Below are positions 39,700 to 54,878 of a stretch of DNA of 64,000 bases, in pieces. Positions within the stretch are counted from its first letter, which is position 1; each line of letters opens with the position of its first letter. The DNA is from a virus: positions 30,556-94,555 of IMG/VR virus record IMGVR_UViG_3300020175_001039; one strand, given 5' to 3'. The notes under the pieces are model-generated. The model saw only the letters and a list, made by a program, of their open reading frames with translations, made no database searches and was not told the DNA's origin. Position numbers and translations under genes: made by a program.

Positions 39700-41151
39700 T
39701 TATACAAAGTCAATTTTAGCTTTGTTAAAAAATAATCCCCAGATACCAGCAAGTACTGCTAGTACAAGGAAGGTGGCTGGTAACCAATTGGTTAAAAGGT
39801 CAGACCATTCGTAAAGTCCAGTAAACTGCAAATAGCTTTTTTCTAGGCGTGCGCTGAGAATAAAACCAATTAAGAAACTTACTCGGCTAAATTTTCCCCA
39901 CTTCAGGCCAAGACCAACCAAACAACACACAGCAAACATAAGATAATCTTCAATATATCCAGTGTACTGTGTGCAACTCCAGATTAAACTGACCAAAATT
40001 GGCCAGAAGTACCACTGGAAAGGTACATTAGTAATACGCACTGCGTACTTGATAAAAAGATATGAAACAGGCAAAATGATAATCAAACTCCACAAGTAAC
40101 TGCTGAGTAGATGATCAAAAAATACACCATCAGCCAATACAGTTGGTGTCCCGAGTTCTAATCCAACATACATGAGAAGGCCCATCACAATAACTTCAAA
40201 AGGTGCTCCTGGAATACCAAAAAGAATAGTGGGAACATAACTGGTGGCTTTTTGTGCATTATTAGCGCCTTCACAACCAATAACCCCACGCACATTGCCT
40301 TTTCCGATACTTTCTCCGTCTTTTCCACTAGCCGCTACTGTTTGGCTATACGCAAACCAGTCTGCAATATTGCCGCCGATTCCTGGTATCAATCCAATAA
40401 ATCCGCCAATAAATCCGCCGCGCAAGCCGTCCCATTTATACTTCCAACTATCTTTAACGCCTTGCCACAATTGTGATTTTATCTCTTTGTCATCTAGGTG
40501 AATTTTTTCTGCTTTCATAAAGTAGGCGCCTATTAACTCAGGGAAGGCTAGTACACCAGCCATAACAGGAATCATTTGAATTCCATCCCCTAGGTAATCA
40601 ATATCCATTGTCCAGCGAGGTGCGGCGGTTTCTGGATCCATACCAATGTGCCCAACCAAAACGCCTAGTACTAGTGCAACTGCACCTCGGAACCAATATT
40701 TGCTACTTATAAAAACTACGCAAGTCATTGCAAAAATTAAGAAAGCAAACATTTCCTTGGTGCCGAAGTACAGTACGATCTTTGTATACCAAGGAAGGAA
40801 TAAAAATACCAACAACCCCCAGATTAGGCCATTAACCCAGCTTGTACTAATAGCTGCACTTAGTGCTCTAGCAGCCTCTCCTCTTCTCGACATCGGAAAG
40901 CCATCAATCATTGTTGCGGCGGCGCCGCCAGCACCTGGAACATTCATTACAACACCACAAAAACTGTCGCCAATACTGCTAGTAACTACAATTGCAGTTG
41001 TAAACACAACCAACATATATGGATCTTCAAAATAACCCACAAATGCATATACAGCAATTAGTCCAGTGGTGGCGCCAGCAACTGGAATAAGCCCCACGAA
41101 AAATCCGTAAACTACTCCCAGTAATAAGCATGCAATATATGTTTCAAACAT
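39700..41151 (-). CDS. tctA: Tripartite tricarboxylate transporter large permease TctA
   Basis: GLIPVAG, NVPG, DGFPMSRRG, GLIPGIGG, EGANNA, P.ILFGIPG; start revised to MFETY with GAGG RBS. Confidence 0.9.
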   Translation of the reverse strand: MFETYIACLLLGVVYGFFVGLIPVAGATTGLIAVYAFVGYFEDPYMLVVFTTAIVVTSSIGDSFCGVVMNVPGAGGAAATMIDGFPMSRRGEAARALSAAISTSWVNGLIWGLLVFLFLPWYTKIVLYFGTKEMFAFLIFAMTCVVFISSKYWFRGAVALVLGVLVGHIGMDPETAAPRWTMDIDYLGDGIQMIPVMAGVLAFPELIGAYFMKAEKIHLDDKEIKSQLWQGVKDSWKYKWDGLRGGFIGGFIGLIPGIGGNIADWFAYSQTVAASGKDGESIGKGNVRGVIGCEGANNAQKATSYVPTILFGIPGAPFEVIVMGLLMYVGLELGTPTVLADGVFFDHLLSSYLWSLIIILPVSYLFIKYAVRITNVPFQWYFWPILVSLIWSCTQYTGYIEDYLMFAVCCLVGLGLKWGKFSRVSFLIGFILSARLEKSYLQFTGLYEWSDLLTNWLPATFLVLAVLAGIWGLFFNKAKIDFV

Positions 41152-41191
41152 TTTTATACCTCTTCGTATATTATTTTTAATATAGCCATAG

Positions 41192-41218
41192 AAAAAACCC
41201 GCAAAGATATTTGCGAGC
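41192..41218 (-). terminator. Terminator-like hairpin in the tctA leader
   Basis: GCTCGCAAA-TATC-TTTGCGGGT-TTTTT. Confidence 0.7.
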
Positions 41219-41304
41219 ATTAAAAAGTTTTTGAAGTTGTGCATTCTGCAAGGCTTAAAAACTATATGACTATGGAATAATAACGTAATCTACGCTATCA
41301 TTAT

Positions 41305-41986: not shown

Positions 41987-42162
41987 TAGTCTTGTCTTTT
42001 CCAATAATGAGGATTATCCTCAGTAGGTACATTTCCAATATACACTTGACCAGTTTCCATGTCAAGTAATTTATATTTTTCCGGACATTTTGTTATTACT
42101 TTAAGCGTAATTGCCATATCAAATTCCGGTGCCTCAGTGTTGTCTAGTAATTTACGTTTCAT
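41986..42162 (-). CDS. Small hypothetical protein (58 aa)
   Basis: Not in track: MKRKLLDNTEAPEFDMAITLKVITKCPEKYKLLDMETGQVYIGNVPTEDNPHYWKRQD; coupled both sides. Confidence 0.7.
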   Translation of the reverse strand: MKRKLLDNTEAPEFDMAITLKVITKCPEKYKLLDMETGQVYIGNVPTEDNPHYWKRQD

Positions 42163-42572
42163 TCAAGTTTGCCATCTTCTCTTAGTTGTTTGCGTATTTT
42201 TGTGGCACTAATATTGTGTATTTCTTGGCCTAAATCATGTTCTGTGAATGTATAACCTACTCCGCGGCCATAGCTGATATCAACGATGTTAGGCACTTTC
42301 ATAATCATATACTCAACACCGTAAGTTGCATAGTCAGTGAGTCCATCTTTAATATTTTTCACAACAGTATCATAATCAAATGGGTTATCATCTTGCTTTG
42401 CTGTGCGCCCAGCGCCTGCATCCTGTCCGACTATCCCACCTACGTCTCTAATCATTATACACACTTGGCCGGTTTCGTCAAGTGCTTTTTTGAATAATGC
42501 AGTGTGGCCATCGTGCCACGGCTGCCAGCGCCCTAGCATCTGTGCTGTGGGTTTTTGCCAATCGAAACTCAT
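42159..42572 (-). CDS. HxGH nucleotidyltransferase (cytidyltransferase-like)
   Basis: GRWQPWHDGH, DNPF, ISATKIR. Confidence 0.85.
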   Translation of the reverse strand: MSFDWQKPTAQMLGRWQPWHDGHTALFKKALDETGQVCIMIRDVGGIVGQDAGAGRTAKQDDNPFDYDTVVKNIKDGLTDYATYGVEYMIMKVPNIVDISYGRGVGYTFTEHDLGQEIHNISATKIRKQLREDGKLE

Positions 42573-42997
42573 TTATTTCTCTCCATGTAGTTATTAACTA
42601 CTTCCATTAATGTACTGTGCGTGTCATCAAACCAGTCACTTACGTGGTAATCAATACCAGATTTGGGAGGTTCTTCAAATATACGATTAGTGTCCGCGAA
42701 CCTGCCTTCTTTGATGGTATCCATCCACACCTTATAGTCTGCATCAAACTCCAGCCTGGCTGCACTGGTAGGACATATAAAGTCAGCTACTGCAATTCTT
42801 CCTGCTTTGACGACACCATCTGCTAAGTGTCGCATACGCTGTGCCTGTCGTTGACGTCCATCCAATGTAAAGTCCCAGTCGTCGTATTCAGCCCTGATTT
42901 CATCTGCATTCAAATGTACTGCGCCAATCATCTCAGCAAAGGGACGAGCAAGAGTGGTTTTGCCACTGCCGGGCAAACCAAATATTAAAATTTTCAT
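42569..42997 (-). CDS. cysC: Adenylylsulfate (APS) kinase-like
   Basis: GLPGSGKT, NADEIR, F...GR.RQ, DFICP, FEEP. Confidence 0.78.
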   Translation of the reverse strand: MKILIFGLPGSGKTTLARPFAEMIGAVHLNADEIRAEYDDWDFTLDGRQRQAQRMRHLADGVVKAGRIAVADFICPTSAARLEFDADYKVWMDTIKEGRFADTNRIFEEPPKSGIDYHVSDWFDDTHSTLMEVVNNYMERNK

Positions 42998-43005
42998 TTT
43001 TTTTC

Positions 43006-43110
43006 CTATTCGTAAATGTAGGGGTCTTGATCTTTTAGTTCTTTTAACTTTTTCTTAATCATTTTTTTACGTTTGTATTCAGCAATTTTGCCTTTAATCC
43101 AATTAATCAT
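43006..43110 (-). CDS. DPxIY micro-protein 1 (34 aa)
   Basis: MINWIKGKIAEYKRKKMIKKKLKELKDQDPYIYE; ATGA overlap with upstream stop. Confidence 0.8.
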   Translation of the reverse strand: MINWIKGKIAEYKRKKMIKKKLKELKDQDPYIYE

Positions 43111-43943
43111 TTCCAATTGTCCTTGCCGTTTATAATGTTATGTTCGTATTTAACAAACAAATTGTTGTAGTTGTTAAAATCTGGAGCCCAGGCTGCAAGA
43201 TACGATAGTATGTACCTTGTTGGGTGTGCATCTGCTTTACGGTGATGTCTGTATTCAGTCATATCAAATATCACAAAGCCTTGTTCAGCAAGTACTTGAC
43301 AATCTTTTAAGTATTGTCCGCTTTCCCAACGACTGTATGCTTCTGCTGTTCCATTACCAAAGGGTCCTGTTGATATTAATATTCCTTTGTCACTTATTGA
43401 ATCTTTATAAGCATCCATTAATCCATTTAATGCTCCCAAGTAAGGTGATGCATCATCATTTACATAATCTAACTTAGCACCATTTACTTTTACTAAATGC
43501 TTTGCTGTTGATATTTGATATGCATCCATTCCATGAAACAATGATTCTTTTCTATTTGGCAGTTGCCAATCGGCTCTATGTGTTTCAGAAAAACGTCTCA
43601 ATGATAAGTCTTGAGCCTTTGCTAATCGTTCATGGTTCTCTATAAAATGTCTTCTGTTGCCTACAGTTTTATAATGTTCTAAATGATCTTTATGAAATAA
43701 GTCTACACCCATTATGTGTGTATCTTCGGAAAACTTAAACATCATGTCATGAGCTCCGCCTCCGCCTATTCCAAGCTCACACAAACTTAATTGTTGCTGT
43801 CTTGACTTTGTTAATTTATCTACAGATGAGAGTGCGTCAGCTAAAAATGGATGAAGTCCTCTGTCTACTTGTCTTTTAACATCTACACAACTATCAGACA
43901 TTGCTTCTTGTGTGTAGCCATGTACATCAAATCTATTAATCAT
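43107..43943 (-). CDS. Methyltransferase-fold protein
   Basis: ELGIGGG, GVD, DAY, DYVNDDAS. Confidence 0.6.
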   Translation of the reverse strand: MINRFDVHGYTQEAMSDSCVDVKRQVDRGLHPFLADALSSVDKLTKSRQQQLSLCELGIGGGGAHDMMFKFSEDTHIMGVDLFHKDHLEHYKTVGNRRHFIENHERLAKAQDLSLRRFSETHRADWQLPNRKESLFHGMDAYQISTAKHLVKVNGAKLDYVNDDASPYLGALNGLMDAYKDSISDKGILISTGPFGNGTAEAYSRWESGQYLKDCQVLAEQGFVIFDMTEYRHHRKADAHPTRYILSYLAAWAPDFNNYNNLFVKYEHNIINGKDNWK

Positions 43944-45462
43944 GTGTGTATACCTTTACTCCATACATGCTAGTCCATTCGGCTGCATCTTCTTCTGTAT
44001 TTACCATAGGCTTGCCTTTGATATTTAAACTTGTGTTTAATATGATAGGACATCCTGTTTTTGCATGCCATTCAACCATAAGCTGATGCAATCCTGGGTG
44101 GTCTTGTTTAGTAACAGTCTGTACACGACTGGTGTTATCTATATGCGCAATTGCTGGAAATAGGTCTGGGCGCTTACATACACTTGTATACTGCATATAA
44201 GGACCAACTGCGCCATCAAAATACTCACTAGCGTGTTCTGCTAATACCATAGGAGCGAATGGCCGGAATTCCTGTCTACGTTTTACTGTGTTGACTAAAT
44301 CCTTTATATCATCGCCTCTAGGATCTGCAAACAAGCTGCGGTTGCCCAATGCACGTGGACCGAACTCTGCCTTGCCGTTTGCTACACCCACTAGTCTGGT
44401 GTTTTCTAGTTCATGTAACAAACCTTTTACTGGATACTGGCCGGAGATATTGTATCCCAAGTAAGGCCCTTTCCATTCAATAAAATCTTTGCGGGCGGCT
44501 AAAATAGCACCAAGGCTACTACCAGCGTCGCCTGGATTGGGCATGATCCAAACATTACCATCGTAGTAACGATGTGCAATACTATTAGCTACACAGTTCA
44601 AAGCACAGCCTCCCATAACCACAAGATTTTTACTGGGCACTAGTCGCTGCGTTTCTTTTACAAGGTGTTCAAACACCATTTCATAAACGGCCTGTGTACT
44701 TGCTGCAATGTCTGCGTAATCTTGAACTGTGTTCAGCTCTGGTGCCCACCACATGCATCCACGATGCAGATTGTGTTTAAACTTTACCTTTGCGCTGCCC
44801 GGGCGCAATGGCTTAAAGAAGTCTTCATATATTTTTTGCTTGTATTTTTCTGGGTCGCCCAGTGCTGCCCAACCCATAAGTATATATTCATCTTCGTTGG
44901 GTTTAAGTCCAATGCGCTGTGTCATAGCACTGTACCATAATCCAATGCTGTGCGGATATCCTTGACTGAACTTTCTTTTTAATTTTTTGCCTTTACCATG
45001 CCATATGGATAATGTCTCAAATTCACCAATGCTGTCCACCACTAATACCGCCGCGTCGGTAAACGGGCCAGTATAATAACCAGCTGCTGCGTGACTATGA
45101 TGATGTTTTACTTGATCAAGTACAGTGGATTCAATAACAAAATCAGCATCATCACCAGGCAGATATTGTCGAGATACGATGTTCACATCTAATAATTGCT
45201 TACCTGGTGATGGCTTAGACCACGCCGTGTGATATTGTTTAGACCAAACTTGTCTCATACGTTTTAAAACAGTATTTTCATACCAATGTGTGATTCTTGG
45301 TTCACCAAATTCCAATGCAGCATCAACCAGGTCTTGATTTAACCACTTGTCATTTTTTACACCGCTATATCTTTCAGCGTGACCAGCAAATAAAATTTCG
45401 TCACCTTCGACAACTGTGAGACTTGCGTCATGTGCGCCGGCAGTTATACCCCATCTAATCAT
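43936..45462 (-). CDS. O-carbamoyltransferase (NodU/CmcH/TobZ family)
   Basis: HDAS, ERYS..K, HHHSHAA, DSIGE, GGCALN, EFGPRALGNRS, RPFAP, NTSLN. Confidence 0.95.
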   Translation of the reverse strand: MIRWGITAGAHDASLTVVEGDEILFAGHAERYSGVKNDKWLNQDLVDAALEFGEPRITHWYENTVLKRMRQVWSKQYHTAWSKPSPGKQLLDVNIVSRQYLPGDDADFVIESTVLDQVKHHHSHAAAGYYTGPFTDAAVLVVDSIGEFETLSIWHGKGKKLKRKFSQGYPHSIGLWYSAMTQRIGLKPNEDEYILMGWAALGDPEKYKQKIYEDFFKPLRPGSAKVKFKHNLHRGCMWWAPELNTVQDYADIAASTQAVYEMVFEHLVKETQRLVPSKNLVVMGGCALNCVANSIAHRYYDGNVWIMPNPGDAGSSLGAILAARKDFIEWKGPYLGYNISGQYPVKGLLHELENTRLVGVANGKAEFGPRALGNRSLFADPRGDDIKDLVNTVKRRQEFRPFAPMVLAEHASEYFDGAVGPYMQYTSVCKRPDLFPAIAHIDNTSRVQTVTKQDHPGLHQLMVEWHAKTGCPIILNTSLNIKGKPMVNTEEDAAEWTSMYGVKVYTHD

Positions 45463-45934
45463 TTTTTTTCTCTAAGTTTATGTATAGCATATTTGCTTTT
45501 CTTAATATTTCATCACACAATAATTTTCCAGCTTGATCAATTAATGAAAATTCCAAGCTATTAGAAACATCTTTCAACAACTGCCAATGATTTCTTTTCA
45601 ATGCCAAATTATATTGTGCCAGTGTCCTGTTAAAGAACTTATTTTGTGCGGCTGACTCCAAATCAGTTGTAAACAATAAATTATTTTTATTGTGTATATA
45701 GATCTTCTCATTTGGTTGGCCGGCTTCTTGTTTCCATTCTAACACACCATTTGTTAAAAGTAAACTGGAAATTTTAGTGGGTGTATTCATAAACACTGCG
45801 TCGTATTGTGACAAATCAAGTTGATTTAAAATACCTGCATAATTTATATATCCACCACCAGGAAGTATTCTATAATCGTATTTATGCTCCTTGCTGTACG
45901 CTTGATATTCATTTGTTAGTACTAATATTTTCAT
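45455..45934 (-). CDS. Hypothetical protein
   Basis: 159 aa, tiles with neighbours. Confidence 0.6.
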   Translation of the reverse strand: MKILVLTNEYQAYSKEHKYDYRILPGGGYINYAGILNQLDLSQYDAVFMNTPTKISSLLLTNGVLEWKQEAGQPNEKIYIHNKNNLLFTTDLESAAQNKFFNRTLAQYNLALKRNHWQLLKDVSNSLEFSLIDQAGKLLCDEILRKANMLYINLEKKND

Positions 45935-45936
45935 GG

Positions 45937-46788
45937 TTATACTAAATTGCTAAAAATAACATTGGTTGCACGATTTAAATACTGGTCCAAATCTTTATTT
46001 TTTGTCATACTTGCCACCAATTGTGCCAGTCCTATATTTTTTAAACTGTAGTTTGCCAGTTCAGGTTTAGTCACTTGTGCAAATGGCAAAGTTAGTCCTA
46101 GAAAAATTTCCTCGTAATGATATAATTTTAGTTTGTTAACTTTTCCCATGTCAGCTAATTGGCTTGCTGAGTTAAACCATCTTTCTAACATATACATTAA
46201 GTTGGTGTCATCATGTAAGTGAGACAGTAACTCAGATTCTACAAATTGGGAAATGTTGGCCTTGGTGTGCGGCAGACGCCTAGCTTTTAAGTATATTCCA
46301 TACAAGTAAACAAAATTAATACACTGATCGTCTATTCTTGTTGCCAGTCCATTATATTCTTTTTCTAATAGATCACATAAACTGGATATGTATGGAGGCG
46401 GAAGTCTCATATTCATTCCCTCTCCCAGTTCAACAGCTCGTTGTAACAACCAAGATGTTTCTCCAATGGTGCGACTAACATTAAACATGCGCTTTGCTTC
46501 TAGCATAAAACAACTAAACCAGTTTGGTAATATAATTGCCATTTCATTTACCATTACATCTTGTGTCTCAAAAAACTTTATAGGAATGTTATGTGAAGCT
46601 AATATAGATTGGTTTGGCTTTATTTCATTCATGGTTGGACGAACATGATATTTTATGTCATCACTAGTCACATACTCGTTAATGTATTCTAGATACTCAG
46701 TATTGGATTTAGGAAGCAAATAACTTATTAAATGATTTCCTCCAGCGCCAGCATCCCATATAACCCCATGTTGAAATAAATGCGTCAT
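45937..46788 (-). CDS. Hypothetical protein, possibly divergent sulfotransferase-like
   Basis: WDAGAGGNHL near N-terminus, YHYEEIF near C-terminus. Confidence 0.45.
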   Translation of the reverse strand: MTHLFQHGVIWDAGAGGNHLISYLLPKSNTEYLEYINEYVTSDDIKYHVRPTMNEIKPNQSILASHNIPIKFFETQDVMVNEMAIILPNWFSCFMLEAKRMFNVSRTIGETSWLLQRAVELGEGMNMRLPPPYISSLCDLLEKEYNGLATRIDDQCINFVYLYGIYLKARRLPHTKANISQFVESELLSHLHDDTNLMYMLERWFNSASQLADMGKVNKLKLYHYEEIFLGLTLPFAQVTKPELANYSLKNIGLAQLVASMTKNKDLDQYLNRATNVIFSNLV

Positions 46789-46869
46789 GGACGGTAAACA
46801 TCGCTGCATATGCCGTACGAATCATCACTATCTAACCAGACTTCTAGTACAGTGTGTGACGCCAATAAA

Positions 46870-46971
46870 TTAATCATATAAGAAAGGGTCCTTGTCTTTC
46901 ATACGCTTTAGATTTTTTCTATATTGTATTTCACCGCGTATACGTTCAATTAAGTTTTTAATAAATTTCAT
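46870..46971 (-). CDS. DPxIY micro-protein 2 (33 aa)
   Basis: MKFIKNLIERIRGEIQYRKNLKRMKDKDPFLYD; ATGA overlap with upstream methyltransferase stop. Confidence 0.8.
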   Translation of the reverse strand: MKFIKNLIERIRGEIQYRKNLKRMKDKDPFLYD

Positions 46972-47702
46972 TTTTCTTCCTCAAACATAGCATAAACAAA
47001 TCCAGGAATAAATTCGTATGATTTTAGTTTACTCATAGTAATATCATATTGATCATCATTATCAAAGTTACACCAAGTTAATTTTCTACCAGTTGACAAT
47101 GCTGCCGCTTGTAATACACTTAGATCAATAGTAACTTCATATGGGTGCCTCAATTGATCTCTGAACCAACTTTTTCTTTGGGTTTCATCTTTTATCCAAG
47201 GAGTCATTTTTTTAAATAATTTATATTGTTTATGCTTTGGATATTTATCATAAAAATCAAACATTGCTCTTCTACTAGAAGTATGATATAGTCCCATAAA
47301 ACAATATTGGTTTGATTTAAGTATTGCTTGCTCCAATAAAAAACTTATATCGTGATCTGGTATATGATGCAATACTCCAATACTAACAACAGTGTCAGCA
47401 GTTCTAGTTGTTTGAAGTATATCTTCTTGATTAAAACTAGTATTGGGTATGTTATAACCTTTTGCTCTATCTATATTTTCTTTTATTAAATCTATTCCAG
47501 TTACTTCTACTGAATAATTATTGGCAATGCGATTACTCAACCACCCTTGCCCACAACCTAATTCTAGTACGGTATTGCTATTTGATACTGCTGTGTCCAA
47601 AGACTTCCAAGGAGTATTTGATTTATTAATTTGTTTCCGTAAACTATCATCATCTGATTTATTGAATGGCAAAATATCATAGAACGTTTTCACTAAACTC
47701 AT
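46968..47702 (-). CDS. Class I SAM-dependent methyltransferase
   Basis: VLELGCGQG, TGIDL, GVLHHIPD, WFRDQ..HP.E. Confidence 0.88.
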   Translation of the reverse strand: MSLVKTFYDILPFNKSDDDSLRKQINKSNTPWKSLDTAVSNSNTVLELGCGQGWLSNRIANNYSVEVTGIDLIKENIDRAKGYNIPNTSFNQEDILQTTRTADTVVSIGVLHHIPDHDISFLLEQAILKSNQYCFMGLYHTSSRRAMFDFYDKYPKHKQYKLFKKMTPWIKDETQRKSWFRDQLRHPYEVTIDLSVLQAAALSTGRKLTWCNFDNDDQYDITMSKLKSYEFIPGFVYAMFEEEK

Positions 47703-48358
47703 TTAGATAATTTCCATTTATACATTAATTGTGCTAACTCAAATTCTTCCTCCGTATCAATATCTATATGTTCACTCATTGAGCACGTAAAGTAATCAAA
47801 TTTTCTAGGAATGGGATAACCATCGACTGCCTTTGTGTCACCTAGTGGTGCTAATATACCTGCCCATGGTAATTGATAAACTGGGTTAAGTTCTTGACTA
47901 TAGGCATGATAATGACCAGGCATAAAGTTAATACCTATTTTGTCATGATTCATATAAAAGTGTTTATGGGGGTGAACTACTAGTTGATTGTTTCCAGTTT
48001 CAGTATAACGTTGATACATCTCGTTATATCGATCAAATAGTGGAACCATAGTATTGCTATAGTTGACTAAGGTATCATCGCTCACTGGCAAACTTTCATA
48101 TATATGCTTCATAACAATTGGCCATGGTGGTCCATTTTGTTCATCACACAATTGTTCTTCACGTTGAATATAAGTAATATGATCTGTGTTTCTTACATCT
48201 GGGTCATTTGTACTAACATATACATGATCGGCGCCACTGCGAAGAAACTGTTCTAATTTAATGTCTACTAAAGTTTCACCATTATAAAATTCACGATGAT
48301 GTTTATTTGGACATCTACTACTGTACATCTTGTACATTGTCATTGCTACCCAGCTCAT
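47699..48358 (-). CDS. Acylneuraminate cytidylyltransferase-like (NeuA/PseF family)
   Basis: SSRCPNKH, VYVSTND, DIDTEEEF. Confidence 0.8.
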   Translation of the reverse strand: MSWVAMTMYKMYSSRCPNKHHREFYNGETLVDIKLEQFLRSGADHVYVSTNDPDVRNTDHITYIQREEQLCDEQNGPPWPIVMKHIYESLPVSDDTLVNYSNTMVPLFDRYNEMYQRYTETGNNQLVVHPHKHFYMNHDKIGINFMPGHYHAYSQELNPVYQLPWAGILAPLGDTKAVDGYPIPRKFDYFTCSMSEHIDIDTEEEFELAQLMYKWKLSK

Positions 48359-48359
48359 A

Positions 48360-49103
48360 TTACCACTCCTTAAAATCTTTTTCTATACTACCACTCGTCA
48401 GTGCTATTGTTGCTTCAATCTCATCACTAAATTGACGTAAAAGATTCCAATAATCAACTGAGTTTTTTTGCCATTCTATTTGACATTCCAAGTTTAATTT
48501 TCCAGCGCAAGAAAAGTTTAAATATTCAAAACGTTGTTCTGGTTCTCTACCTGCTCTGCTTATACCAAATTCTTCATCATAATCACCACCGTTAATTAAA
48601 CACTCAGAAAATACTTCTTGGGCAGTGTTTAATACTTTCATATTTTCCAATGGAATAAATGGGCTATCTCCATAGTGATTATACATAACAGGTATTTTAT
48701 TTTTTCTATGATACAGGTTAAGAACCCTAGCACTTCCATTGACTAATCGTAGATGCTTACGGTTATGGTTATATCTGACAATTGGCCTATACAATATATT
48801 GGGTATCTGTAAAATATATATCATATGTGTTGATCGTTCCAACATACCATACTTAGGACCAAATCTCAAAGAATGATCACAATTGGGGTCAAGTTGCTGA
48901 AATTCACGTATTGTTTTCTCATCACAGCTTCTCAATCTGTTCAGTGCTATTCTAAGTTGTTCACTCAACCCATTGACAATAAAATTATCTTCATAGTGCT
49001 TTGTAAAATCAGCACTGAATATTGCACCACCTTCACTGTGGACATCTCTCATCCATTTTTCAACTCTATCAAAGTTACCTTTCCATCCTGTTCTTCTAGG
49101 CAT
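48360..49103 (-). CDS. Hypothetical protein
   Basis: 247 aa. Confidence 0.6.
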   Translation of the reverse strand: MPRRTGWKGNFDRVEKWMRDVHSEGGAIFSADFTKHYEDNFIVNGLSEQLRIALNRLRSCDEKTIREFQQLDPNCDHSLRFGPKYGMLERSTHMIYILQIPNILYRPIVRYNHNRKHLRLVNGSARVLNLYHRKNKIPVMYNHYGDSPFIPLENMKVLNTAQEVFSECLINGGDYDEEFGISRAGREPEQRFEYLNFSCAGKLNLECQIEWQKNSVDYWNLLRQFSDEIEATIALTSGSIEKDFKEW

Positions 49104-49650
49104 TATAAAATTCCTTTGCTATATTAATGTGCCAATCTTTTCCCGGGTGCATTCCATCACTGCCTAATGGGTACTTGTGAAATGGGAATTTTTCCATATC
49201 AAGTTGATAAAGTTCAACACCTTTCCATCCACAATATGCTTCAAGCATAGTTTTGTTTTTGATATAGTTATAGTTGTCAAATTTTTCATTCCCTAACATT
49301 ACCATACTCTTGTGCCAGAACTTGTTTTGGTTTGGTTTATGCGTTGGATTAAATCTCAGTGGTTGATTATTTTCATCAATAAATTCTCTACGTTCTTTTA
49401 ATGTCCATAGTACATAAATTCTATTTGGTGAGTATTGATTAATATATTCAATAGCAAGTCTACATATACGATCATTACTGCTTCCTGGTTGTCCACCATT
49501 ATACAAATTTAATAGGTTACACCAATCCTGACCTATCTCTACGCCCTCACCCCAAGTAGCACTACATCCAAACCCTGCGTCAGCACCAAGTCTATTTGGA
49601 TACTTTGGATCAAAAAATAATTCATTATTGTTTGTTTTATTAAAAAACAT
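49096..49650 (-). CDS. SGNH/GDSL-like hydrolase/acyltransferase
   Basis: FGCSATWGEG, GSSNDRI, DGMHPG. Confidence 0.7.
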   Translation of the reverse strand: MFFNKTNNNELFFDPKYPNRLGADAGFGCSATWGEGVEIGQDWCNLLNLYNGGQPGSSNDRICRLAIEYINQYSPNRIYVLWTLKERREFIDENNQPLRFNPTHKPNQNKFWHKSMVMLGNEKFDNYNYIKNKTMLEAYCGWKGVELYQLDMEKFPFHKYPLGSDGMHPGKDWHINIAKEFYNA

Positions 49651-50197
49651 TTATTAACTCCTTTGCTACAATTTTATTACCTTGTAAAGTCATATGATTC
49701 TGCCACCGCTCACCCTTGTTACTATTATATATATTACTCATATTTATGATATTATATTTTTTTGCCAATTTTGGAAAGAAAGTAATATGTGTGCTATTTG
49801 GTATGCTACGACAATCCTCTAATATTTTTTCATACTGATAAACAAAGTATTCGTCATCCCATATTTTTTCTAATACTTCAACAAACTCGTCTGCTTTATC
49901 ATTAACATCCCCAAACAGTATATCACAGTATCTATGCGTATCAATAAGTCTACTTTTCATACTTTTTACACTGTCCTTTAAGAATACTCTACTGTAGTGT
50001 GTATGACAAAAAATAACTCGGTCATCTTGTGAAATTACGTGCCTATTCTCTTGATAAGATCGCCATATTCTATATTCACTACTACCCCTACTACCAAATG
50101 TTTTACCACTGATATAATCAGGCCATCCGCTCTGCCATGCGCTAAAACTATCCCCAAAAATGTAAATCATAAATTCTCCATGATAATTTCTGCCCAA
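49640..50197 (-). CDS. SGNH/GDSL-like protein
   Basis: IFGDSF, GSS, NHMT.QGN. Confidence 0.7.
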   Translation of the reverse strand: MGRNYHGEFMIYIFGDSFSAWQSGWPDYISGKTFGSRGSSEYRIWRSYQENRHVISQDDRVIFCHTHYSRVFLKDSVKSMKSRLIDTHRYCDILFGDVNDKADEFVEVLEKIWDDEYFVYQYEKILEDCRSIPNSTHITFFPKLAKKYNIINMSNIYNSNKGERWQNHMTLQGNKIVAKELINVF

Positions 50198-50838
50198 GGA
50201 GTATGTACTGATCCTGTAAAGTGCCCGGGGTCTAGCCTACCATCTTCAAGTTTACCAAATTTTTGTTCTTTGGGAATATCAAGACTATGTGCATAATCTT
50301 TAAAACTTTTGTTATATATATTTTCTGTTTTAATATTACATAAATCTTTCATATAACCCAAATTGGTTTCTGGATAATAGATAGGTTCATCTATAAAAGC
50401 AAAATATCTACAAGGCAACTTTGACAAATAATTGTCAAGCATGAGATATTGTTGATGCCAATGTAGACTATCATTAACTTCATTTGTTATCGTGCTCTTG
50501 TAAAACTTTAATCCATAAATGAAGTCGTCTTCATTTTTATTTTGTAAACTCAATTGTGTCATGCCAACATAGTTAATAATTTTATGCGCTGCATCTCTTA
50601 CATCCACATGCTGCGTCTTACTTGCTTTAGCTGGAATTTGAATTACAACGACATCATCACTGCTGATGTTTTCAAATTCAATCAACAGTCTCATGATAAC
50701 ATAATTTATAGATGCACCTGCGGTGGCAAAGTCGTGTCTTTCTAAATTTAGTTTTTGGGAGATTATATCACTGTATACAATACCATCACCATTCCAACCA
50801 ATAGCATGACTGCCGCCAAAGTTAAGTAAACTTGCCAT
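50167..50838 (-). CDS. SGNH/GDSL-like protein
   Basis: FGGSHAIG, GAS, DPGHF. Confidence 0.6.
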   Translation of the reverse strand: MASLLNFGGSHAIGWNGDGIVYSDIISQKLNLERHDFATAGASINYVIMRLLIEFENISSDDVVVIQIPAKASKTQHVDVRDAAHKIINYVGMTQLSLQNKNEDDFIYGLKFYKSTITNEVNDSLHWHQQYLMLDNYLSKLPCRYFAFIDEPIYYPETNLGYMKDLCNIKTENIYNKSFKDYAHSLDIPKEQKFGKLEDGRLDPGHFTGSVHTPWAEIIMENL

Positions 50839-50851
50839 AAATATATTTATG
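50836..50851. promoter_or_regulatory. Perfect 16-bp palindrome; candidate bidirectional late promoter
   Basis: CATAAATATATTTATG is its own reverse complement and contains both divergent start codons. Confidence 0.65.
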
Positions 50852-50971
50852 AGGAATTATATTAACATATTATTCAATCCGTTTAGATTTATCAATGAGT
50901 GGAAACGTAAACGTAGATTTAGAAAAAAGGTTCAAGAGATGATGGATGAAGACCCATTCATTTATGATTGA
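50849..50971 (+). CDS. DPxIY micro-protein 3 (40 aa, plus strand)
   Basis: MRNYINILFNPFRFINEWKRKRRFRKKVQEMMDEDPFIYD. Confidence 0.75.
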   Translation: MRNYINILFNPFRFINEWKRKRRFRKKVQEMMDEDPFIYD

Positions 50972-51656
50972 TCCACTCTAGTACTTGTTCATAATTTTCT
51001 ATACTATCACTGTAATTTCCGCGCTTGACAATCTTTACGGTTAAATTTTCTACTGGACTTTTAGCAAGCATCGGAAACAGCATTTGATCTTTAGTTGGAT
51101 CACCAGATAAATCTTCATAGTATATTGTTTGATCAAAATCCATGTCAGTATAGTTTAATATCATATCACTATACTGTTGTATAGTTTTTAGATTATGTTC
51201 AGTTTCTTCACGTGTAGCAATGAATTTGTTTGGAAGACTATGCGGTATTATACTATTTCCATGTGCCACTTTAAAAGTGTTGTACATCTTACTATTTTTT
51301 GCTATCAACAGACTAAGGGATGTTTCAATGATATCTTTTCTTATGATTTTAATTTTGTAAAAATCTCTATAACAATCATTTGGATCAAAGTTAACACCAT
51401 AATGCATTCCATAGTGCGTGAGATGATCTTTGGAAAATATATCAACATCGTTGTTTTTTAAAAAATCTAAATGGTATTGTGTCTTTTCAATGTCTTTCAT
51501 CTCTGCCAGTAACCTTAGATGTTCTTTAAAAACATTATAATACTTTTTACTGTACGTACCTATATCACGGCCCTTTTTTTCGTGATAACTTTTAAACAAC
51601 TGTGTAATATAACTTGTACCTGTACGTGGTTGGCCAAGCAACAAAATTTTACTCAT
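50958..51656 (-). CDS. Sulfotransferase-like (Stf0-type)
   Basis: GQPRTGTSY, IIRKD..ET..S, IYYEDL. Confidence 0.72.
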   Translation of the reverse strand: MSKILLLGQPRTGTSYITQLFKSYHEKKGRDIGTYSKKYYNVFKEHLRLLAEMKDIEKTQYHLDFLKNNDVDIFSKDHLTHYGMHYGVNFDPNDCYRDFYKIKIIRKDIIETSLSLLIAKNSKMYNTFKVAHGNSIIPHSLPNKFIATREETEHNLKTIQQYSDMILNYTDMDFDQTIYYEDLSGDPTKDQMLFPMLAKSPVENLTVKIVKRGNYSDSIENYEQVLEWINHK

Positions 51657-52290
51657 ATAATCTTGCCTTTACTTTCCCTAAAACTTCGTCGTAGTTTTTA
51701 ACTACACTGCGCTTATCCTTATTTGGTATAGTATTTATTTTTATATCTTTAGATTGAGTAATGTATTTTATCAACTGTTGATCTTTATTTGGATCAAGAG
51801 ACAAATCTTCATAATAAACAGTTTCATCAAACCAATTTTCTGGTATCATAGAAATACTGTCATAACCATAATTTATTTTATCAATCACACTATCTAAATG
51901 ATCAAGATCAATTGTTACAGAATCTGATACATCTAGTATAGTTCTGTGATACTTATTGGTAGTCTCTGCTATTGCCATACTTATAATTGCTTCGGTACGA
52001 TCTTTTCTTATAACTCTAATACGATAAAAATTTTCATAGAATTCAAAAAGGTCATTGCCTGTTTCATATTCATAAACACGAAACGTTTGAGCATGTTCTT
52101 TAATTAGCTCAGCAGAATGAAGTGTACCCATTGTATCATGGAAGTCACTGATGTTTCTAGTAGATATTGCATGTTTAAATGGTTCATTCAAACACTTACT
52201 GTCATTCAATTCAAGATAGTTTTGCAGTAAGTAATAAAGATAAGTTGTACCGCAACGATTGGTTCCGCAGATTAATATTTTATCTTTCAT
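51649..52290 (-). CDS. Sulfotransferase-like (Stf0-type), paralog of 50958-51656
   Basis: GTNRCGTTY, LNEPF, VIRKD..EA..S, VYYEDL, KNYDEV. Confidence 0.75.
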   Translation of the reverse strand: MKDKILICGTNRCGTTYLYYLLQNYLELNDSKCLNEPFKHAISTRNISDFHDTMGTLHSAELIKEHAQTFRVYEYETGNDLFEFYENFYRIRVIRKDRTEAIISMAIAETTNKYHRTILDVSDSVTIDLDHLDSVIDKINYGYDSISMIPENWFDETVYYEDLSLDPNKDQQLIKYITQSKDIKINTIPNKDKRSVVKNYDEVLGKVKARLYE

Positions 52291-53242: not shown

Positions 53243-54878
53243 CTTTCTTTTTTCTCTCTAGCTGTTTTTTGCTTTTGTCTATTCCAGTTTTGAAGTTTGT
53301 TTCATCTTCTGGAGCATTAAACATCTTTCTGTATTCACGCATACACAGTTCATAGAACTCAGCATATTCTGGGAATACTTCGTGAAAATTTTTCCCACGA
53401 CGATTACTGTATTGTTTCATAAACAGTGCAAACTTAGCACGGTTAGCACGGATTTCTGGATTAAGAGTTAGTCCATCTTCGCCAACTTGCTTTGCTGCTA
53501 ACATCATGTTTACCACGTTTCGTTTTAGTTTTAGACTTTCGTGACTTTCAAATTTTTGTGTAATGTACCAATCGCCAGTTCCAGCATTATCATACATGAA
53601 TTCTAGAGCAGGCATCATATATTTCTTAATCATACTAACATCTAAGATATTGGCATCCAAGAATTGCGGGTGTCGTAAGTATGGAATATCAACTGCTACT
53701 CGATTGTGTACGTCCAGGTTGTGCTCTTTGCGTTCAGCATATGTCATTGATTCTTCATCAACATCAATGTATCCTTCTTCTTCTAACCATTTGAACCATC
53801 CTTGGTAACTGTAAGTTTGTTTCAAATATAAAACCCACTCTAAAAGCTCTTTGAAAGTACTTGCGCTCAATACGTTAAATGCACACATGAAAACAATTTT
53901 TGTACCTTTTGTATTTTTCAAGAACTTTTCGATATTAGTTACAAACAGGTCCCAATCCATTCCATCACGAATGAAGTCATTTTGTTTACCAGTCGCTTCT
54001 GCACTTGTATATAGTTCGAACTTCTTAACACATTTATTTGTTGTAAGTATGTTTACCTTTTCAATAAACTCATCCCAAATTTTACCAGGAGGACAGCCGT
54101 TACTATTAATAGCAAAGTTCAAGTTTGGGTTAGGATTTTCAATTAAAAAGTCAATAACCTTCATTGTGTCTTTAATTAGAAGAGGCTCGCCACCTGTAAT
54201 ACGGAAAGTATGCATATGCTTGTATGCCTCTGGGAACCATTCCCAGAATGCTTCAATGTATGGATTGTGTTCATTGTTTGGAATATGCTTTTCACTTTCC
54301 TTGATTGGATTAAAGAAATGATTGAAAATATTATAAGGACCATGTTGTTTAATTTCTTGCTCCCACTGACTACTAAAAGGTGGACCACAGTAAGCACACT
54401 TAAAGTTACATGTTCTATTAAAACTTACTTCAACATATGTTGGAAATACATCTTCATCACCATCCAGTTCACTAATTTTGTCATGATGTGGACTACTAAA
54501 TGTGGGTAAACTTTTAAGAACACGATCACTAAATTCGTTCGTGTTGTCTTCCACACGCCAACAAAAGTCACACTCACTGGGGCGTTTACCGCTTAACATT
54601 TCTTTACGCCGTGCTTTTTTGAATTTTGTATTATGCAGTGCGCTAGGATTTTCTTTTAATTCATCCAATGGGATGCTGTGTGCACCTGGGTGGTGACAAC
54701 TATGTGTAAGGCCGTTACCAAGATGCATTGTAACCTGTGTCCATTTTGCCAAACAGAAACCTTTTCCAGTTTGGTTTAATAGGTCGCGCATCTGATGACG
54801 GTTATTTTCTGTTAGTGCTATTTCGTCATCATTGACGCCTTCTTTGTCCCATGCATAGTCATTTATTTTTTTACTCAT
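53235..54878 (-). CDS. Radical SAM protein with N-terminal Twitch-like domain
   Basis: FCLAKW...SCHHP...CDFCW; CNFKCAYC; ITGGEPL. Confidence 0.9.
   Translation of the reverse strand: MSKKINDYAWDKEGVNDDEIALTENNRHQMRDLLNQTGKGFCLAKWTQVTMHLGNGLTHSCHHPGAHSIPLDELKENPSALHNTKFKKARRKEMLSGKRPSECDFCWRVEDNTNEFSDRVLKSLPTFSSPHHDKISELDGDEDVFPTYVEVSFNRTCNFKCAYCGPPFSSQWEQEIKQHGPYNIFNHFFNPIKESEKHIPNNEHNPYIEAFWEWFPEAYKHMHTFRITGGEPLLIKDTMKVIDFLIENPNPNLNFAINSNGCPPGKIWDEFIEKVNILTTNKCVKKFELYTSAEATGKQNDFIRDGMDWDLFVTNIEKFLKNTKGTKIVFMCAFNVLSASTFKELLEWVLYLKQTYSYQGWFKWLEEEGYIDVDEESMTYAERKEHNLDVHNRVAVDIPYLRHPQFLDANILDVSMIKKYMMPALEFMYDNAGTGDWYITQKFESHESLKLKRNVVNMMLAAKQVGEDGLTLNPEIRANRAKFALFMKQYSNRRGKNFHEVFPEYAEFYELCMREYRKMFNAPEDETNFKTGIDKSKKQLERKKKDD

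What the first reader, a model, noticed from the sequence alone, without database searches (positions are those of the whole stretch)
43006..50971. Three unannotated paralogous micro-proteins ending DP[FY][IL]Y[DE] around a carbamoyltransferase
Seen in sequence: three ORFs below the track cut-off at 43006-43110(-) MINWIKGKIAEYKRKKMIKKKLKELKDQDPYIYE, 46870-46971(-) MKFIKNLIERIRGEIQYRKNLKRMKDKDPFLYD and 50849-50971(+) MRNYINILFNPFRFINEWKRKRRFRKKVQEMMDEDPFIYD. They share a hydrophobic/aromatic start, a basic helix and a conserved D-x-D-P-[FY]-[IL]-Y-[DE]-stop tail, although the DNA differs. Two are ATGA-coupled to methyltransferase-fold genes. The third is inverted with its own candidate promoter. 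Established: bacterial NodU-family carbamoyltransferases often have a small partner (SxtK/DUF5989) ending APFIYTLF. Inference: these are either soluble SxtK-like partner/scaffold peptides, or RiPP-like substrates for the surrounding carbamoyl-, methyl-, sulfotransferase and radical SAM enzymes. An acid-flanked Tyr is also a classic sulfation context. This is the best candidate for an undescribed system here.
Basis: partly seen in the sequence, partly recalled or inferred. Interest (0 to 1): 0.85.

Follow-up and report, generated by a model that had tools for sequence, protein, structure and literature searches.

The report
Phage tyrosine-tailed microproteins beside carbamoyltransferase
Three overlooked 33-40-residue genes in a marine giant-phage fragment belong to a large, unnamed, virus-only family of one-helix proteins whose invariant ...DPF-x-Y tail sits next to carbamoyl-adding and SGNH-type enzymes, so they may be soluble carriers that pass a chemical group from one enzyme to the next on the tyrosine.

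Summary
Exactly three open frames in the window end D-x-DP[FY][ILV]Y[DE]-stop, against 0.003 expected by chance. They belong to a family of at least 437 clusters (50% identity) of 30-45-aa proteins. No Pfam, PHROGs or NCBIfam model covers it, and it is almost absent from 185,579 cellular genomes. Invariant D, P, F and Y codons vary only at the third base, so the protein is under selection. Of 128 copies, 88 lie within 300 nt of a co-directional NodU/TobZ-type carbamoyltransferase (CT), 51 of them with a 4-nt overlap. Fifty-eight copies have an SGNH/GDSL-like gene within 5 kb, and only 8 have neither. The window holds one CT, three microproteins and three tandem SGNH-like genes. The tail matches the published FXYXXF "acyl-shuttle" motif of DltX and bacterial MBOATs, and of DUF5989/SxtK. 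The match is complete in DPFTYKNF-tailed relatives and truncated to FXYX here. Best reading: a membrane-free tyrosine shuttle that takes carbamoyl from the CT to SGNH transferases (about 0.4). Rivals are a non-covalent CT partner and a RiPP-like precursor. HMM membership in DUF5989 and DltX fails. This scan has met the same family before on other DNA.

The parts
43006..43110 (-). Microprotein 1 (34 aa, ...KDQDPYIYE). Its ATG overlaps the stop of the 278-aa MTase-fold gene (ATGA). Its stop lies 8 nt before the APS-kinase-like gene.
   Evidence: An identical protein (P0002) is seen on 55 contigs. AF2 gives one helix, residues 2-28, with a free tail; pLDDT 90.6.
46870..46971 (-). Microprotein 2 (33 aa, ...KDKDPFLYD). 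ATGA-coupled to the 244-aa class I methyltransferase. GAGGA Shine-Dalgarno-like sequence upstream.
   Evidence: Near-identical P0007 and the variant P0104 occur elsewhere.
50849..50971 (+). Microprotein 3 (40 aa, ...MDEDPFIYD). The only + strand gene here. It fills the 119-nt gap between two - strand genes, starts 10 nt from the divergent start of the 223-aa SGNH-like gene, and overlaps the 3' end of gene 50958-51656 by 14 nt.
   Evidence: P0004, 93% identical with an intact tail, comes from another sample. It resembles the 40-aa subfamily with an inserted P[FY].
43936..45462 (-). NodU/TobZ-type carbamoyltransferase, 508 aa (Kae1-like N domain plus YrdC-like C domain)
   Evidence: Pfam PF02543 8.5e-37 and PF16861 9.6e-51. 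It falls inside the clade of microprotein-linked phage CTs (36 rows, SH-aLRT 98).
43107..43943 (-). 278-aa class I SAM-methyltransferase-fold protein lying between the CT and microprotein 1. The closest relatives (L007, L037) have CT followed directly by the microprotein.
   Evidence: AF2 pLDDT 91. Foldseek hits CalS11, MycE, SpnK and Dot1L at E about 1e-5. ELGIGGGG motif. Synteny.
46968..47702 (-). 244-aa class I methyltransferase (NodS-like hit among others), upstream partner of microprotein 2
   Evidence: Pfam Methyltransf_31/25/23 about 1e-12; NodS 6.6e-5
49096..49650 (-). SGNH/GDSL-like protein, 184 aa (G-C-S ... D-G-M-H-P)
   Evidence: Iterated profile 1.7e-27 with G, S and H invariant. 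Profile A8 hits PDB GDSL proteins at E 4e-6 to 1e-3. ESM Atlas neighbours are named SGNH/GDSL. No direct Pfam hit.
49640..50197 (-). SGNH/GDSL-like protein, 185 aa (FGDSFS ... NHMTLQG)
   Evidence: profile 4.6e-13; motifs read
50167..50838 (-). SGNH/GDSL-like protein, 223 aa (FGGSHAIG ... DPGH), divergent neighbour of microprotein 3
   Evidence: profile 3.6e-13; motifs read
42569..42997 (-). APS-kinase-like P-loop kinase, 142 aa, immediately downstream of microprotein 1
   Evidence: Pfam APS_kinase 32.9 bits (cut-off 21.1) and AAA_33. Homologs occur in 21 microprotein loci.
42159..42572 (-). HxGH nucleotidyltransferase-like protein, 137 aa (weak ATP-sulfurylase / cytidylyltransferase-like)
   Evidence: Homologs occur in 26 microprotein loci, some as the N-terminal domain of 1300-1650-aa proteins that follow the microprotein.

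Best explanation
The three ORFs encode real, free-standing microproteins. Each is one basic amphipathic helix of about 27 residues ending in a flexible tail, D-P-[FY]-x-Y-x. I propose that they are soluble, phage-encoded counterparts of the transmembrane 'acyl-shuttle' microproteins DltX and, by inference, SxtK/DUF5989.

In this model the carbamoyltransferase makes carbamoyl-AMP and loads the carbamoyl group on the phenol of the invariant tail Tyr. The tail then presents O-carbamoyl-Tyr to the catalytic Ser of one of the SGNH/GDSL-like transferases encoded beside it. That enzyme delivers the group to the final acceptor, probably a sugar, given the surrounding methyl-, sulfo- and nucleotidyl-transferases. 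The helix would serve as the docking handle for the enzymes.

Shown: the genes exist, the protein is under selection, the family is virus-restricted, it is linked to CT and SGNH genes, and the tail matches the motif. Inferred: loading on Tyr, transfer to Ser, the cargo and the acceptor.
For: (1) The proteins are real and selected. There are 115 clusters at 90% identity and 437 at 50%. In 87 distinct tails, D, P, F and Y have zero entropy at codon positions 1-2 and 0.8-1.7 bits at position 3, with all four Pro codons and six Leu codons used.

(2) Linkage to CT. Of 128 copies, 88 lie within 300 nt of a co-directional CT, 51 of them with a 4-nt overlap, and 105 have a CT in the locus. For comparison, the window's CT matches only 142 of 50,697 phage records.

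(3) Linkage to SGNH-like genes. Fifty-eight of 128 copies have one within 5 kb, including 15 of the 23 CT-less loci, and only 8 copies have neither enzyme. None of 6 microprotein-less phage CT loci has this SGNH family. In Ralstonia phage RsoM2USA the unannotated copy sits between two SGNH-like genes next to the CT.

(4) The window has one CT, three microproteins and three tandem SGNH-like genes.

(5) Motif. In DltX and MBOAT proteins the C-terminal FXYXXF carries the acyl group on its Tyr to the Ser of an SGNH transferase (PMC12148441). DUF5989 ends APFIYTLF and the phage KNF subfamily ends DPFTYKNF. Both are FXYXXF at the extreme C-terminus. hhalign aligns just these 8 columns (P 7.5e-4).

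(6) DUF5989 lay next to a CT in 25 of 25 bacterial loci, in the same two gene orders as in phages.

(7) Tail type tracks gene order: K/R tails are always upstream of the CT (40 of 40) and KNF tails always downstream (38 of 38). This is consistent with long co-inheritance.

(8) In the AF2 model the tail is not part of the helix.

(9) From general chemistry, not tested here: aryl carbamates carbamoylate active-site serines.
Against: The window's three tails are truncated to FXYX and lack the final XF of the published motif. The DltX (PF12459) and DUF5989 (PF19451) HMMs give no hit, and profile-profile similarity is confined to the tail, so common descent is unproven and the motif could be convergent or coincidental. 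No MBOAT or SxtJ-like partner was found. The known shuttles act outside the membrane, whereas this one would be cytoplasmic, where a direct CT-to-substrate transfer needs no shuttle. In the window none of the three genes abuts the CT (0.8, 1.4 and 5.4 kb away). More than half of the family's loci show no SGNH gene within 5 kb. About 27 loci pair the microprotein with a CT that lacks the YrdC-like domain needed to make carbamoyl-AMP. Some loci have neither CT nor SGNH and carry radical SAM/SPASM, cupin or nucleotidyltransferase genes instead.
Confidence: 0.4

Rival explanations
1. Non-covalent accessory subunit. The microprotein binds the carbamoyltransferase, probably on its Kae1-like domain, through the helix and tail. 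It stabilises, activates or localises the enzyme without ever carrying the group. The W/I-rich, basic N-terminal turn could act as a peripheral membrane anchor, standing in for the TM helix of DUF5989.
For: Start/stop overlaps with the CT in 51 loci suggest equimolar co-production. The constant partner across subfamilies is the Kae1-like N domain, because N-domain-only CTs keep the microprotein. The amphipathic helix has an i, i+3/4, i+7 hydrophobic stripe. In about 27 loci an 81-aa two-TM protein lies between the microprotein and the CT, recalling CT + SxtJ + SxtK. Tail type co-varies with gene order.
Against: It does not explain why the one invariant nucleophile-bearing residue is a Tyr set in the same FXY(XXF) frame as proven acyl shuttles. 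It does not explain the co-occurrence with SGNH-like genes, including in 15 loci with no CT. It does not explain why this window has three copies for one CT, none of them adjacent to it.
Confidence: 0.25
2. Peptide precursor or scaffold (RiPP-like or cofactor-like, as with PqqA or MftA). The C-terminal Tyr-containing tail is itself the substrate, modified by neighbouring radical SAM, methyl-, sulfo- or carbamoyl-transferases, and the modified piece is the product.
For: The most abundant metagenomic subtypes (P0037 and P0033, on 254 and 122 contigs) sit between radical SAM and SPASM-domain proteins in loci L124, L136, L141 and L145. The phage record has 10 radical SAM matches, one about 2.9 kb from peptide 3. 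Relatives of these radical SAM proteins occur in 22 microprotein loci. Cofactor precursors such as MftA end in a conserved Tyr (general knowledge).
Against: Only about 17% of loci have such radical SAM genes, against 82% with a CT. No peptidase or exporter was noticed next to the genes, though this was not searched systematically. Tight translational coupling to enzymes is unusual for precursors. The whole helix is conserved in character across more than 400 clusters, with no variable core.
Confidence: 0.12
3. Cis-acting leader or arrest peptide, or a DNA/RNA signal, that controls expression of the neighbouring enzyme gene, with no trans-acting protein function.
For: The ORF is short and abuts enzyme genes. 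The strongest conservation lies in the last 12 codons before the stop, as in termination-arrest peptides. 'IYK-stop' can spell TATAAATA, the T4-type late promoter sequence.
Against: Third codon positions vary freely while positions 1-2 of D, P, F and Y are invariant, so no DNA or RNA motif is being conserved. The ORF lies upstream of the CT in one subfamily and downstream in another. Peptide 3 has no downstream gene on its strand. The residues after the Tyr vary (K, D, E, KNF, NH or none).
Confidence: 0.04

Closest known systems
DltX and the C-terminal FXYXXF 'acyl shuttle' of bacterial MBOAT proteins (PatA, etc.), working with SGNH transferases (DltD, PatB)
   Same: Both are microproteins, or tails, whose invariant Tyr lies in F-x-Y-(x-x-F) at the extreme C-terminus, and both are encoded beside SGNH-family genes. 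The phage KNF subfamily has the full hexapeptide (DPFTYKNF). Motif and mechanism are taken from PMC12148441.
   Different: There is no transmembrane helix and no MBOAT. The donor enzyme would be an ATP-dependent carbamoyltransferase, the cargo carbamoyl rather than acetyl or D-alanyl, and the location cytoplasmic. The window's tails stop one residue after the Tyr. The PF12459 HMM does not match.
SxtK / DUF5989 (PF19451), the approximately 50-aa protein of unknown function encoded with carbamoyltransferases (sxtI-J-K of saxitoxin clusters)
   Same: Same size class and same genomic partner: 25 of 25 bacterial DUF5989 loci abut a CT, in either order. Both have a basic, aromatic amphipathic N-terminus and a tail with PF[IT]Y at the same distance from the C-terminus (APFIYTLF against DPFTYKNF). 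SxtJ and SxtK are uncharacterised (PMC2885083).
   Different: DUF5989 has a central hydrophobic TM segment where the phage proteins have a Lys/Arg/Glu-rich helix. The HMM gives no hit and hhalign aligns only 4-8 tail columns. The phage family is essentially absent from cellular genomes (2 MAG contigs among 185,579 species), whereas DUF5989 is present in 60 of 301 Pseudomonadota genomes sampled. No SxtJ-like gene was seen in the window.
HypF-HypE (carbamoyl transfer onto the C-terminal residue of a partner protein)
   Same: From general knowledge: an enzyme with YrdC-like and Kae1-like domains puts a carbamoyl group on the flexible C-terminal tail of a separate protein.
   Different: HypE is a large enzyme, the acceptor is a Cys thiol, and the system matures hydrogenase. 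No sequence relation was tested.

Membership tests
DUF5989 / SxtK (PF19451) | Match to the family HMM above 27 bits | tested here: not met
   No match at E<=10 in the whole 94.5-kb record. Pfam scan of the peptides at E<=10 does not list it.
DUF5989 / SxtK (PF19451) | Central transmembrane helix | tested here: not met
   The sequences are Lys/Arg/Glu-rich (GRAVY about -1.1, pI about 9.9). AF2 gives one soluble-type helix. Real DUF5989 members show LLPILI..LLGGLIV.
DUF5989 / SxtK (PF19451) | C-terminal APFIYTLF-type tail | tested here: inconclusive
   The window tails (DPYIYE, DPFLYD, DPFIYD) share P-[FY]-x-Y but end early. KNF relatives share P-F-x-Y-x-x-F. hhalign aligns the tail only, with P 7.5e-4 and 0.023.
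DUF5989 / SxtK (PF19451) | Encoded next to a NodU/TobZ-type carbamoyltransferase | tested here: met
   For the family, 88 of 128 copies are adjacent. In the window the CT lies 0.8, 1.4 and 5.4 kb away in the same island.
DltX-type acyl shuttle (PF12459; FXYXXF motif) | Match to the DltX HMM | tested here: not met
   No match at E<=10 in the record, although the control genomes B. subtilis and L. lactis ring
DltX-type acyl shuttle (PF12459; FXYXXF motif) | Invariant Tyr within a C-terminal FXYXXF hexapeptide | tested here: inconclusive
   Tyr is invariant in 87 of 87 distinct tails and F in 86 of 87. The full FXYXXF is present in the KNF subfamily. The window's three have only FXYX.
DltX-type acyl shuttle (PF12459; FXYXXF motif) | Partner SGNH-family transferase | tested here: met
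   Three SGNH-like genes at 49096-50838. Fifty-eight of 128 family loci have one within 5 kb.
DltX-type acyl shuttle (PF12459; FXYXXF motif) | Partner MBOAT acyl donor and transmembrane topology | tested here: not met
   No MBOAT (PF03062) match in the record; no TM helix
DltX-type acyl shuttle (PF12459; FXYXXF motif) | Covalent acyl-Tyr intermediate | not testable with these tools
   Needs biochemistry and mass spectrometry
RiPP / peptide-cofactor precursor | Dedicated maturase (radical SAM/SPASM, YcaO, etc.) adjacent, plus a peptidase or exporter | tested here: inconclusive
   Radical SAM/SPASM genes are adjacent in 4 relatives' loci, and radical SAM relatives occur in 22 loci. In the window the nearest radical SAM match is about 2.9 kb away. 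A peptidase or exporter was not searched for.
RiPP / peptide-cofactor precursor | Conserved leader with a variable or product-defining core | tested here: not met
   The tail is the most conserved part, and the N-terminal helix is conserved only in character. This is still compatible with cofactor-type precursors.

The most novel reading that the evidence does not exclude
These phage microproteins would be the first membrane-free tyrosine shuttles and the first with a carbamoyl cargo. An ATP-dependent carbamoyltransferase would load the tail Tyr, and dedicated SGNH transferases would unload it. The three paralogs and three SGNH enzymes in this jumbo-phage island would route groups to different positions of a heavily decorated (methylated, sulfated, carbamoylated) sugar. 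The same logic would then assign a function to the long-unexplained SxtJ/SxtK/SxtL genes that accompany bacterial carbamoyltransferases.
Probability: 0.3. Interest if true: 0.85.

Novelty: new variant of a known kind. Interest (0 to 1): 0.72.

Why it matters
The family is large: at least 437 clusters at 50% identity, found in marine, freshwater and soil phages, including the cultured Ralstonia phage RsoM2USA, where its copy is unannotated. It is missing from Pfam, PHROGs and NCBIfam and is usually below gene-calling cut-offs. It marks a recurrent phage cassette of carbamoyltransferase and SGNH transferases with sugar-tailoring enzymes, whose product is unknown. If the tyrosine-shuttle reading holds, the acyl-Tyr relay described for cell-envelope acylation would extend to a soluble, viral setting and to a new chemical group. 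It would also suggest a role for SxtK/DUF5989, which have had none since 2008. If it is only a docking subunit, it is still a useful handle for purifying and characterising phage carbamoyltransferases.

Tried and rejected
- tblastn of P0037 and P0029 against the phage collection gave nothing. The low-complexity filter on a Lys-rich 34-mer is the likely cause, so this is not evidence of absence. Whole-record profile searches found one copy in RsoM2USA and none in HTVC008M, S-CAM8, C48C1, S-SCSM1, S-SSM7 or CM1.
- megablast of the region against phages gave no match.
- Pfam, PHROGs and NCBIfam on the peptides gave only chance-level hits. The ESM Atlas returned only unnamed 34-aa clusters.
- A search for fused long forms found none; the 87-99-aa hits look like miscalled starts. 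Longer hits are upstream-start artefacts, one tandem pair (P0116) and one frameshift fusion to a CT N-terminus (P0259).
- The Lipase_GDSL_2 HMM and single-sequence PDB searches did not detect the SGNH-like genes. Only an iterated profile did.
- The promoter/terminator scan was at chance level.
- I considered that the tail encodes a T4-type late promoter (TATAAATA in IYK-stop). The codon test and the window's own tails reject this.
- Metatranscriptome contigs of one study cover the whole stretch. They carry no strand information and may contain DNA, so they are not used as evidence of expression.
- Literature searches for DUF5989, DPFIY, DPFTY and PFIYTLF found nothing relevant.

Full report
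**Observation**

In all six frames of the 64-kb window they are the only frames that end P[FYW][ILVM]Y followed by at most six residues and a stop. The strict tail DP[FY][ILV]Y[DEK]-stop occurs three times, against a mean of 0.003 in 300 shuffles.

The copies are old paralogs, not recent duplicates. They share 57-67% nucleotide and 38-48% amino-acid identity over the last 21 codons.

- Peptides 1 and 2 start inside an ATGA overlap with the stop of the upstream gene and have GGA/GAGGA purine tracts upstream.
- Peptide 3 lies on the opposite strand, in the 119-nt gap between two minus-strand genes. It has no Shine-Dalgarno-like sequence and no promoter match better than chance.

**A real, large, virus-restricted family**

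- A profile of the three peptides plus two viral homologs retrieved 115 clusters (90% identity) of 33-45-aa proteins with no Pfam domain.
- An exhaustive HMMER pass over 1.84 billion representatives found 437 clusters at E<=1e-3.
- Longer hits are miscalled starts, one tandem pair and one frameshift fusion. A dedicated search for long fused forms found none.
- Pfam, PHROGs, NCBIfam and the ESM Atlas have no name for the family, and the literature search found nothing.
- In one genome for each of 185,579 prokaryotic species the conserved tail pattern led to only two loci, both on short MAG contigs.
- IMG/VR gave 47 and 80 loci in two scans.
- The window comes from a 94.5-kb marine virus fragment, estimated 26% complete, whose DNA recurs in 11 studies.

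The consensus is M-I-K-W-I-K-x-x-I-x-x-[WY]-K-x-E-R-x-Y-K-K-K-I-K-E-L-K-K-R-D-P-F-[IT]-Y. It is then followed by K, by D/E, or by K-N-F.

**Selection acts on the protein**

I compared 87 distinct DNA versions of the tail. The D, P, F and Y codons have zero entropy at positions 1 and 2 and 0.8-1.7 bits at position 3. All four Pro codons, six Leu codons and both Arg codon families are used. This rules out a conserved DNA or RNA signal. That includes the T4-type late promoter that 'IYK-stop' can spell.

AlphaFold2 with the family alignment gives one helix (residues 2-28, pLDDT 90.6) and a non-helical tail.

**Linkage to enzymes**

I located carbamoyltransferase (CT) genes in every locus with a profile built from the window's CT.

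| Feature, of 128 microprotein copies | Count |
|---|---|
| Within 300 nt of a co-directional CT | 88 |
| Of those, with a 4-nt overlap | 51 |
| CT anywhere in the fetched locus | 105 |
| No CT within 5 kb | 23 |
| SGNH-like gene within 5 kb | 58 |
| Neither CT nor SGNH-like gene | 8 |

As background, the window's CT matches only 142 of 50,697 phage records.

Gene order tracks the tail type. K/R-tailed copies are always directly upstream of the CT (40 of 40). KNF-tailed copies are always directly downstream of a CT of about 550 aa (38 of 38).

In a tree, microprotein-linked CTs form a clade (36 rows, SH-aLRT 98). The cyanophage and pelagiphage 'Nol-like' CTs without the microprotein fall outside it. 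My sampling was through the microprotein, so this shows distinctness, not independent association.

The closest CTs to the window's (L007 at 66% identity, and L037) are followed directly by their microprotein. In the window a 278-aa gene lies between the CT and peptide 1. That gene has a class I methyltransferase fold closest to sugar O-methyltransferases.

**Loci without a CT**

In the 23 copies with no CT within 5 kb, the microprotein is still tightly packed against enzyme genes:

- radical SAM and SPASM proteins with two GT7 glycosyltransferases;
- a cupin, or a transketolase-like protein, followed by a 1300-1650-aa protein that starts with an HxGH nucleotidyltransferase domain;
- IMPDH/GMP reductase;
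- a 2OG-Fe oxygenase.

A note from this scan on another genome (e1-5774420) pointed to the tyrosine 'acyl shuttle'. I checked the source (PMC12148441):

- In teichoic-acid D-alanylation, the transmembrane microprotein DltX carries D-Ala on an invariant Tyr in a C-terminal FXYXXF hexapeptide.
- It takes the group from the MBOAT enzyme DltB to the catalytic Ser of the SGNH protein DltD.
- In PatA and other MBOATs the same hexapeptide is fused to the enzyme and is auto-acetylated on that Tyr.

Real DUF5989 proteins, which I extracted from 25 bacterial loci, end APFIYTLF. The phage KNF subfamily ends DPFTYKNF. Both are FXYXXF at the extreme C-terminus. The window's three tails (YIYE, FLYD, FIYD) are the same frame cut after one more residue.

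The window also carries three tandem genes at 49096-50838 with G-x-S near the N-terminus and D-x-x-H near the C-terminus.

- Pfam and single-sequence PDB searches miss them.
- A profile iterated from the 184-aa protein over the family's loci keeps G, S and H invariant. It scores the three window proteins at 1.7e-27, 3.6e-13 and 4.6e-13.
- That profile hits solved GDSL/SGNH proteins at E 4e-6 to 1e-3.
- Some members reach Pfam Lipase_GDSL, Lipase_GDSL_2 and DUF6071.
- ESM Atlas neighbours are named SGNH/GDSL.

This SGNH-like family occurs within 5 kb of 58 of 128 microproteins, including 15 of the 23 CT-less copies. It occurs in none of six microprotein-less phage CT loci. In Ralstonia phage RsoM2USA the unannotated copy lies between two such genes, one gene away from the CT.

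**Relation to DUF5989/SxtK**

I confirmed that DUF5989 is present in 60 of 301 sampled Pseudomonadota genomes and abuts a CT in 25 of 25 loci. It lies either directly upstream of the CT, or downstream after a 136-aa four-TM SxtJ-like gene. The phage family therefore occupies the same position.

Homology is not shown. The PF19451 HMM finds nothing in the record. hhalign aligns only the last 8 columns (P 7.5e-4) or 4 columns (P 0.023). The phage proteins have a charged helix where DUF5989 has a membrane span. The DltX HMM and an MBOAT HMM also find nothing.

**Best explanation and rivals**

Best explanation (confidence about 0.4): a soluble tyrosine shuttle. The CT loads carbamoyl on the tail Tyr. 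An SGNH-like transferase takes it on its Ser and passes it to a sugar acceptor. The helix is the docking handle.

Shown:
- gene reality and selection on the protein;
- virus restriction;
- CT and SGNH linkage;
- the motif match;
- the contents of the window (one CT, three microproteins, three SGNH-like genes, at least three methyltransferase-fold genes, an APS-kinase-like gene and a nucleotidyltransferase-like gene).

Inferred: every chemical step.

Points against:
- the window's tails are truncated;
- a cytoplasmic enzyme has no obvious need for a shuttle;
- more than half of the loci have no SGNH gene within 5 kb;
- about 27 loci pair the microprotein with a CT that lacks the YrdC-like domain.

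Rivals:
- A non-covalent CT subunit or peripheral membrane tether (0.25).
- A RiPP- or cofactor-type precursor (0.12). Radical SAM/SPASM neighbours in some abundant subtypes, and ten radical SAM matches in this phage record, keep this alive.
- A cis-acting leader (0.04). The variable gene order and the codon test argue against it.

**Novelty**

In public family databases and in the searchable literature the family is undescribed. This scan has met it before on other DNA (e1-5952099, e1-5834475, e1-5861158, e1-5992660). Those agents' readings (a CT partner or carrier arm) agree with mine. The exception is that the microprotein does not 'always' travel with a CT.

I class it as a new variant of a known kind: a TM-less, viral form of the Tyr-tailed microproteins that work with SGNH transferases, or a soluble analogue of SxtK.

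**Limits**

- Expression is not shown. RNA-library contigs cover the region but carry no strand information.
- All loci were fetched through the microprotein itself.

Noticed in passing
L015:4048-7763 (and about 27 similar IMG/VR loci, e.g. L002, L022, L031, L041): A truncated carbamoyltransferase sits inside the replication module. The order is DnaG-like primase, microprotein, an 81-aa two-TM protein (P0267, weak DUF2061 hit), the CT (Kae1-like N domain only, about 320 aa, no YrdC-like domain), then DnaB-like helicase.
   Followed up: partly
L055:3026-3148 (Ralstonia phage RsoM2USA, MG752970 record 125894-125992, - strand): An unannotated 36-aa family member (...IRKQDPFIYK) lies in the gap between RsoM2USA_201 and _200. 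My profile scores both neighbours as SGNH-like. The copy is one gene upstream of the CT, RsoM2USA_199. It is the only copy in this cultured jumbo phage.
   Followed up: partly
window about 3414-3935, 32754-33215 and 53832-54425; seven more in the record upstream of the window: The 94.5-kb virus record has 10 radical SAM (PF04055) matches, 8 above the Pfam cut-off. That is unusually many for a phage fragment.
   Followed up: no
window 42159-42997 (-): An APS-kinase-like 142-aa gene and an HxGH nucleotidyltransferase-like 137-aa gene (weak ATP-sulfurylase hit) recur beside the CT and microprotein in 21-26 KNF-type loci. They could be a PAPS-synthesis pair or a NadR-like pair. In some loci the nucleotidyltransferase is the N-terminal domain of a 1300-1650-aa protein.
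   Followed up: partly
window 48169-48326: Contigs from two metatranscriptome libraries (X7, X8) skip 156 nt inside the 219-aa PseF-like cytidylyltransferase gene. The DNA runs X3 and X6 do not show the skip. It may be a strain variant.
   Followed up: no
L136:503-8772: Gene cluster: two GT7 glycosyltransferases with ConA-like domains, a radical SAM protein (503 aa), the microprotein, two proteins with an N-terminal SPASM domain followed by a radical SAM domain, then another radical SAM protein. No CT lies within 5 kb.
   Followed up: partly
window 50958-52290 (-): Two paralogous genes of 213 and 232 aa (26% identity) start with P-loop-like GxxRxGT[ST]Y motifs. The only Pfam support is a sub-threshold Sulfotransfer_3 hit (E 0.005). 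A homolog directly follows the microprotein in L037.
   Followed up: partly
window 39700-41244 (-): A 514-aa polytopic membrane protein is encoded at the edge of the island. It was not analysed.
   Followed up: no
P0116 (75 aa, metagenomic): Two family members are fused head to tail in one open frame (...KEDPFIYK-QEKY-M...KKDPFIYK).
   Followed up: no
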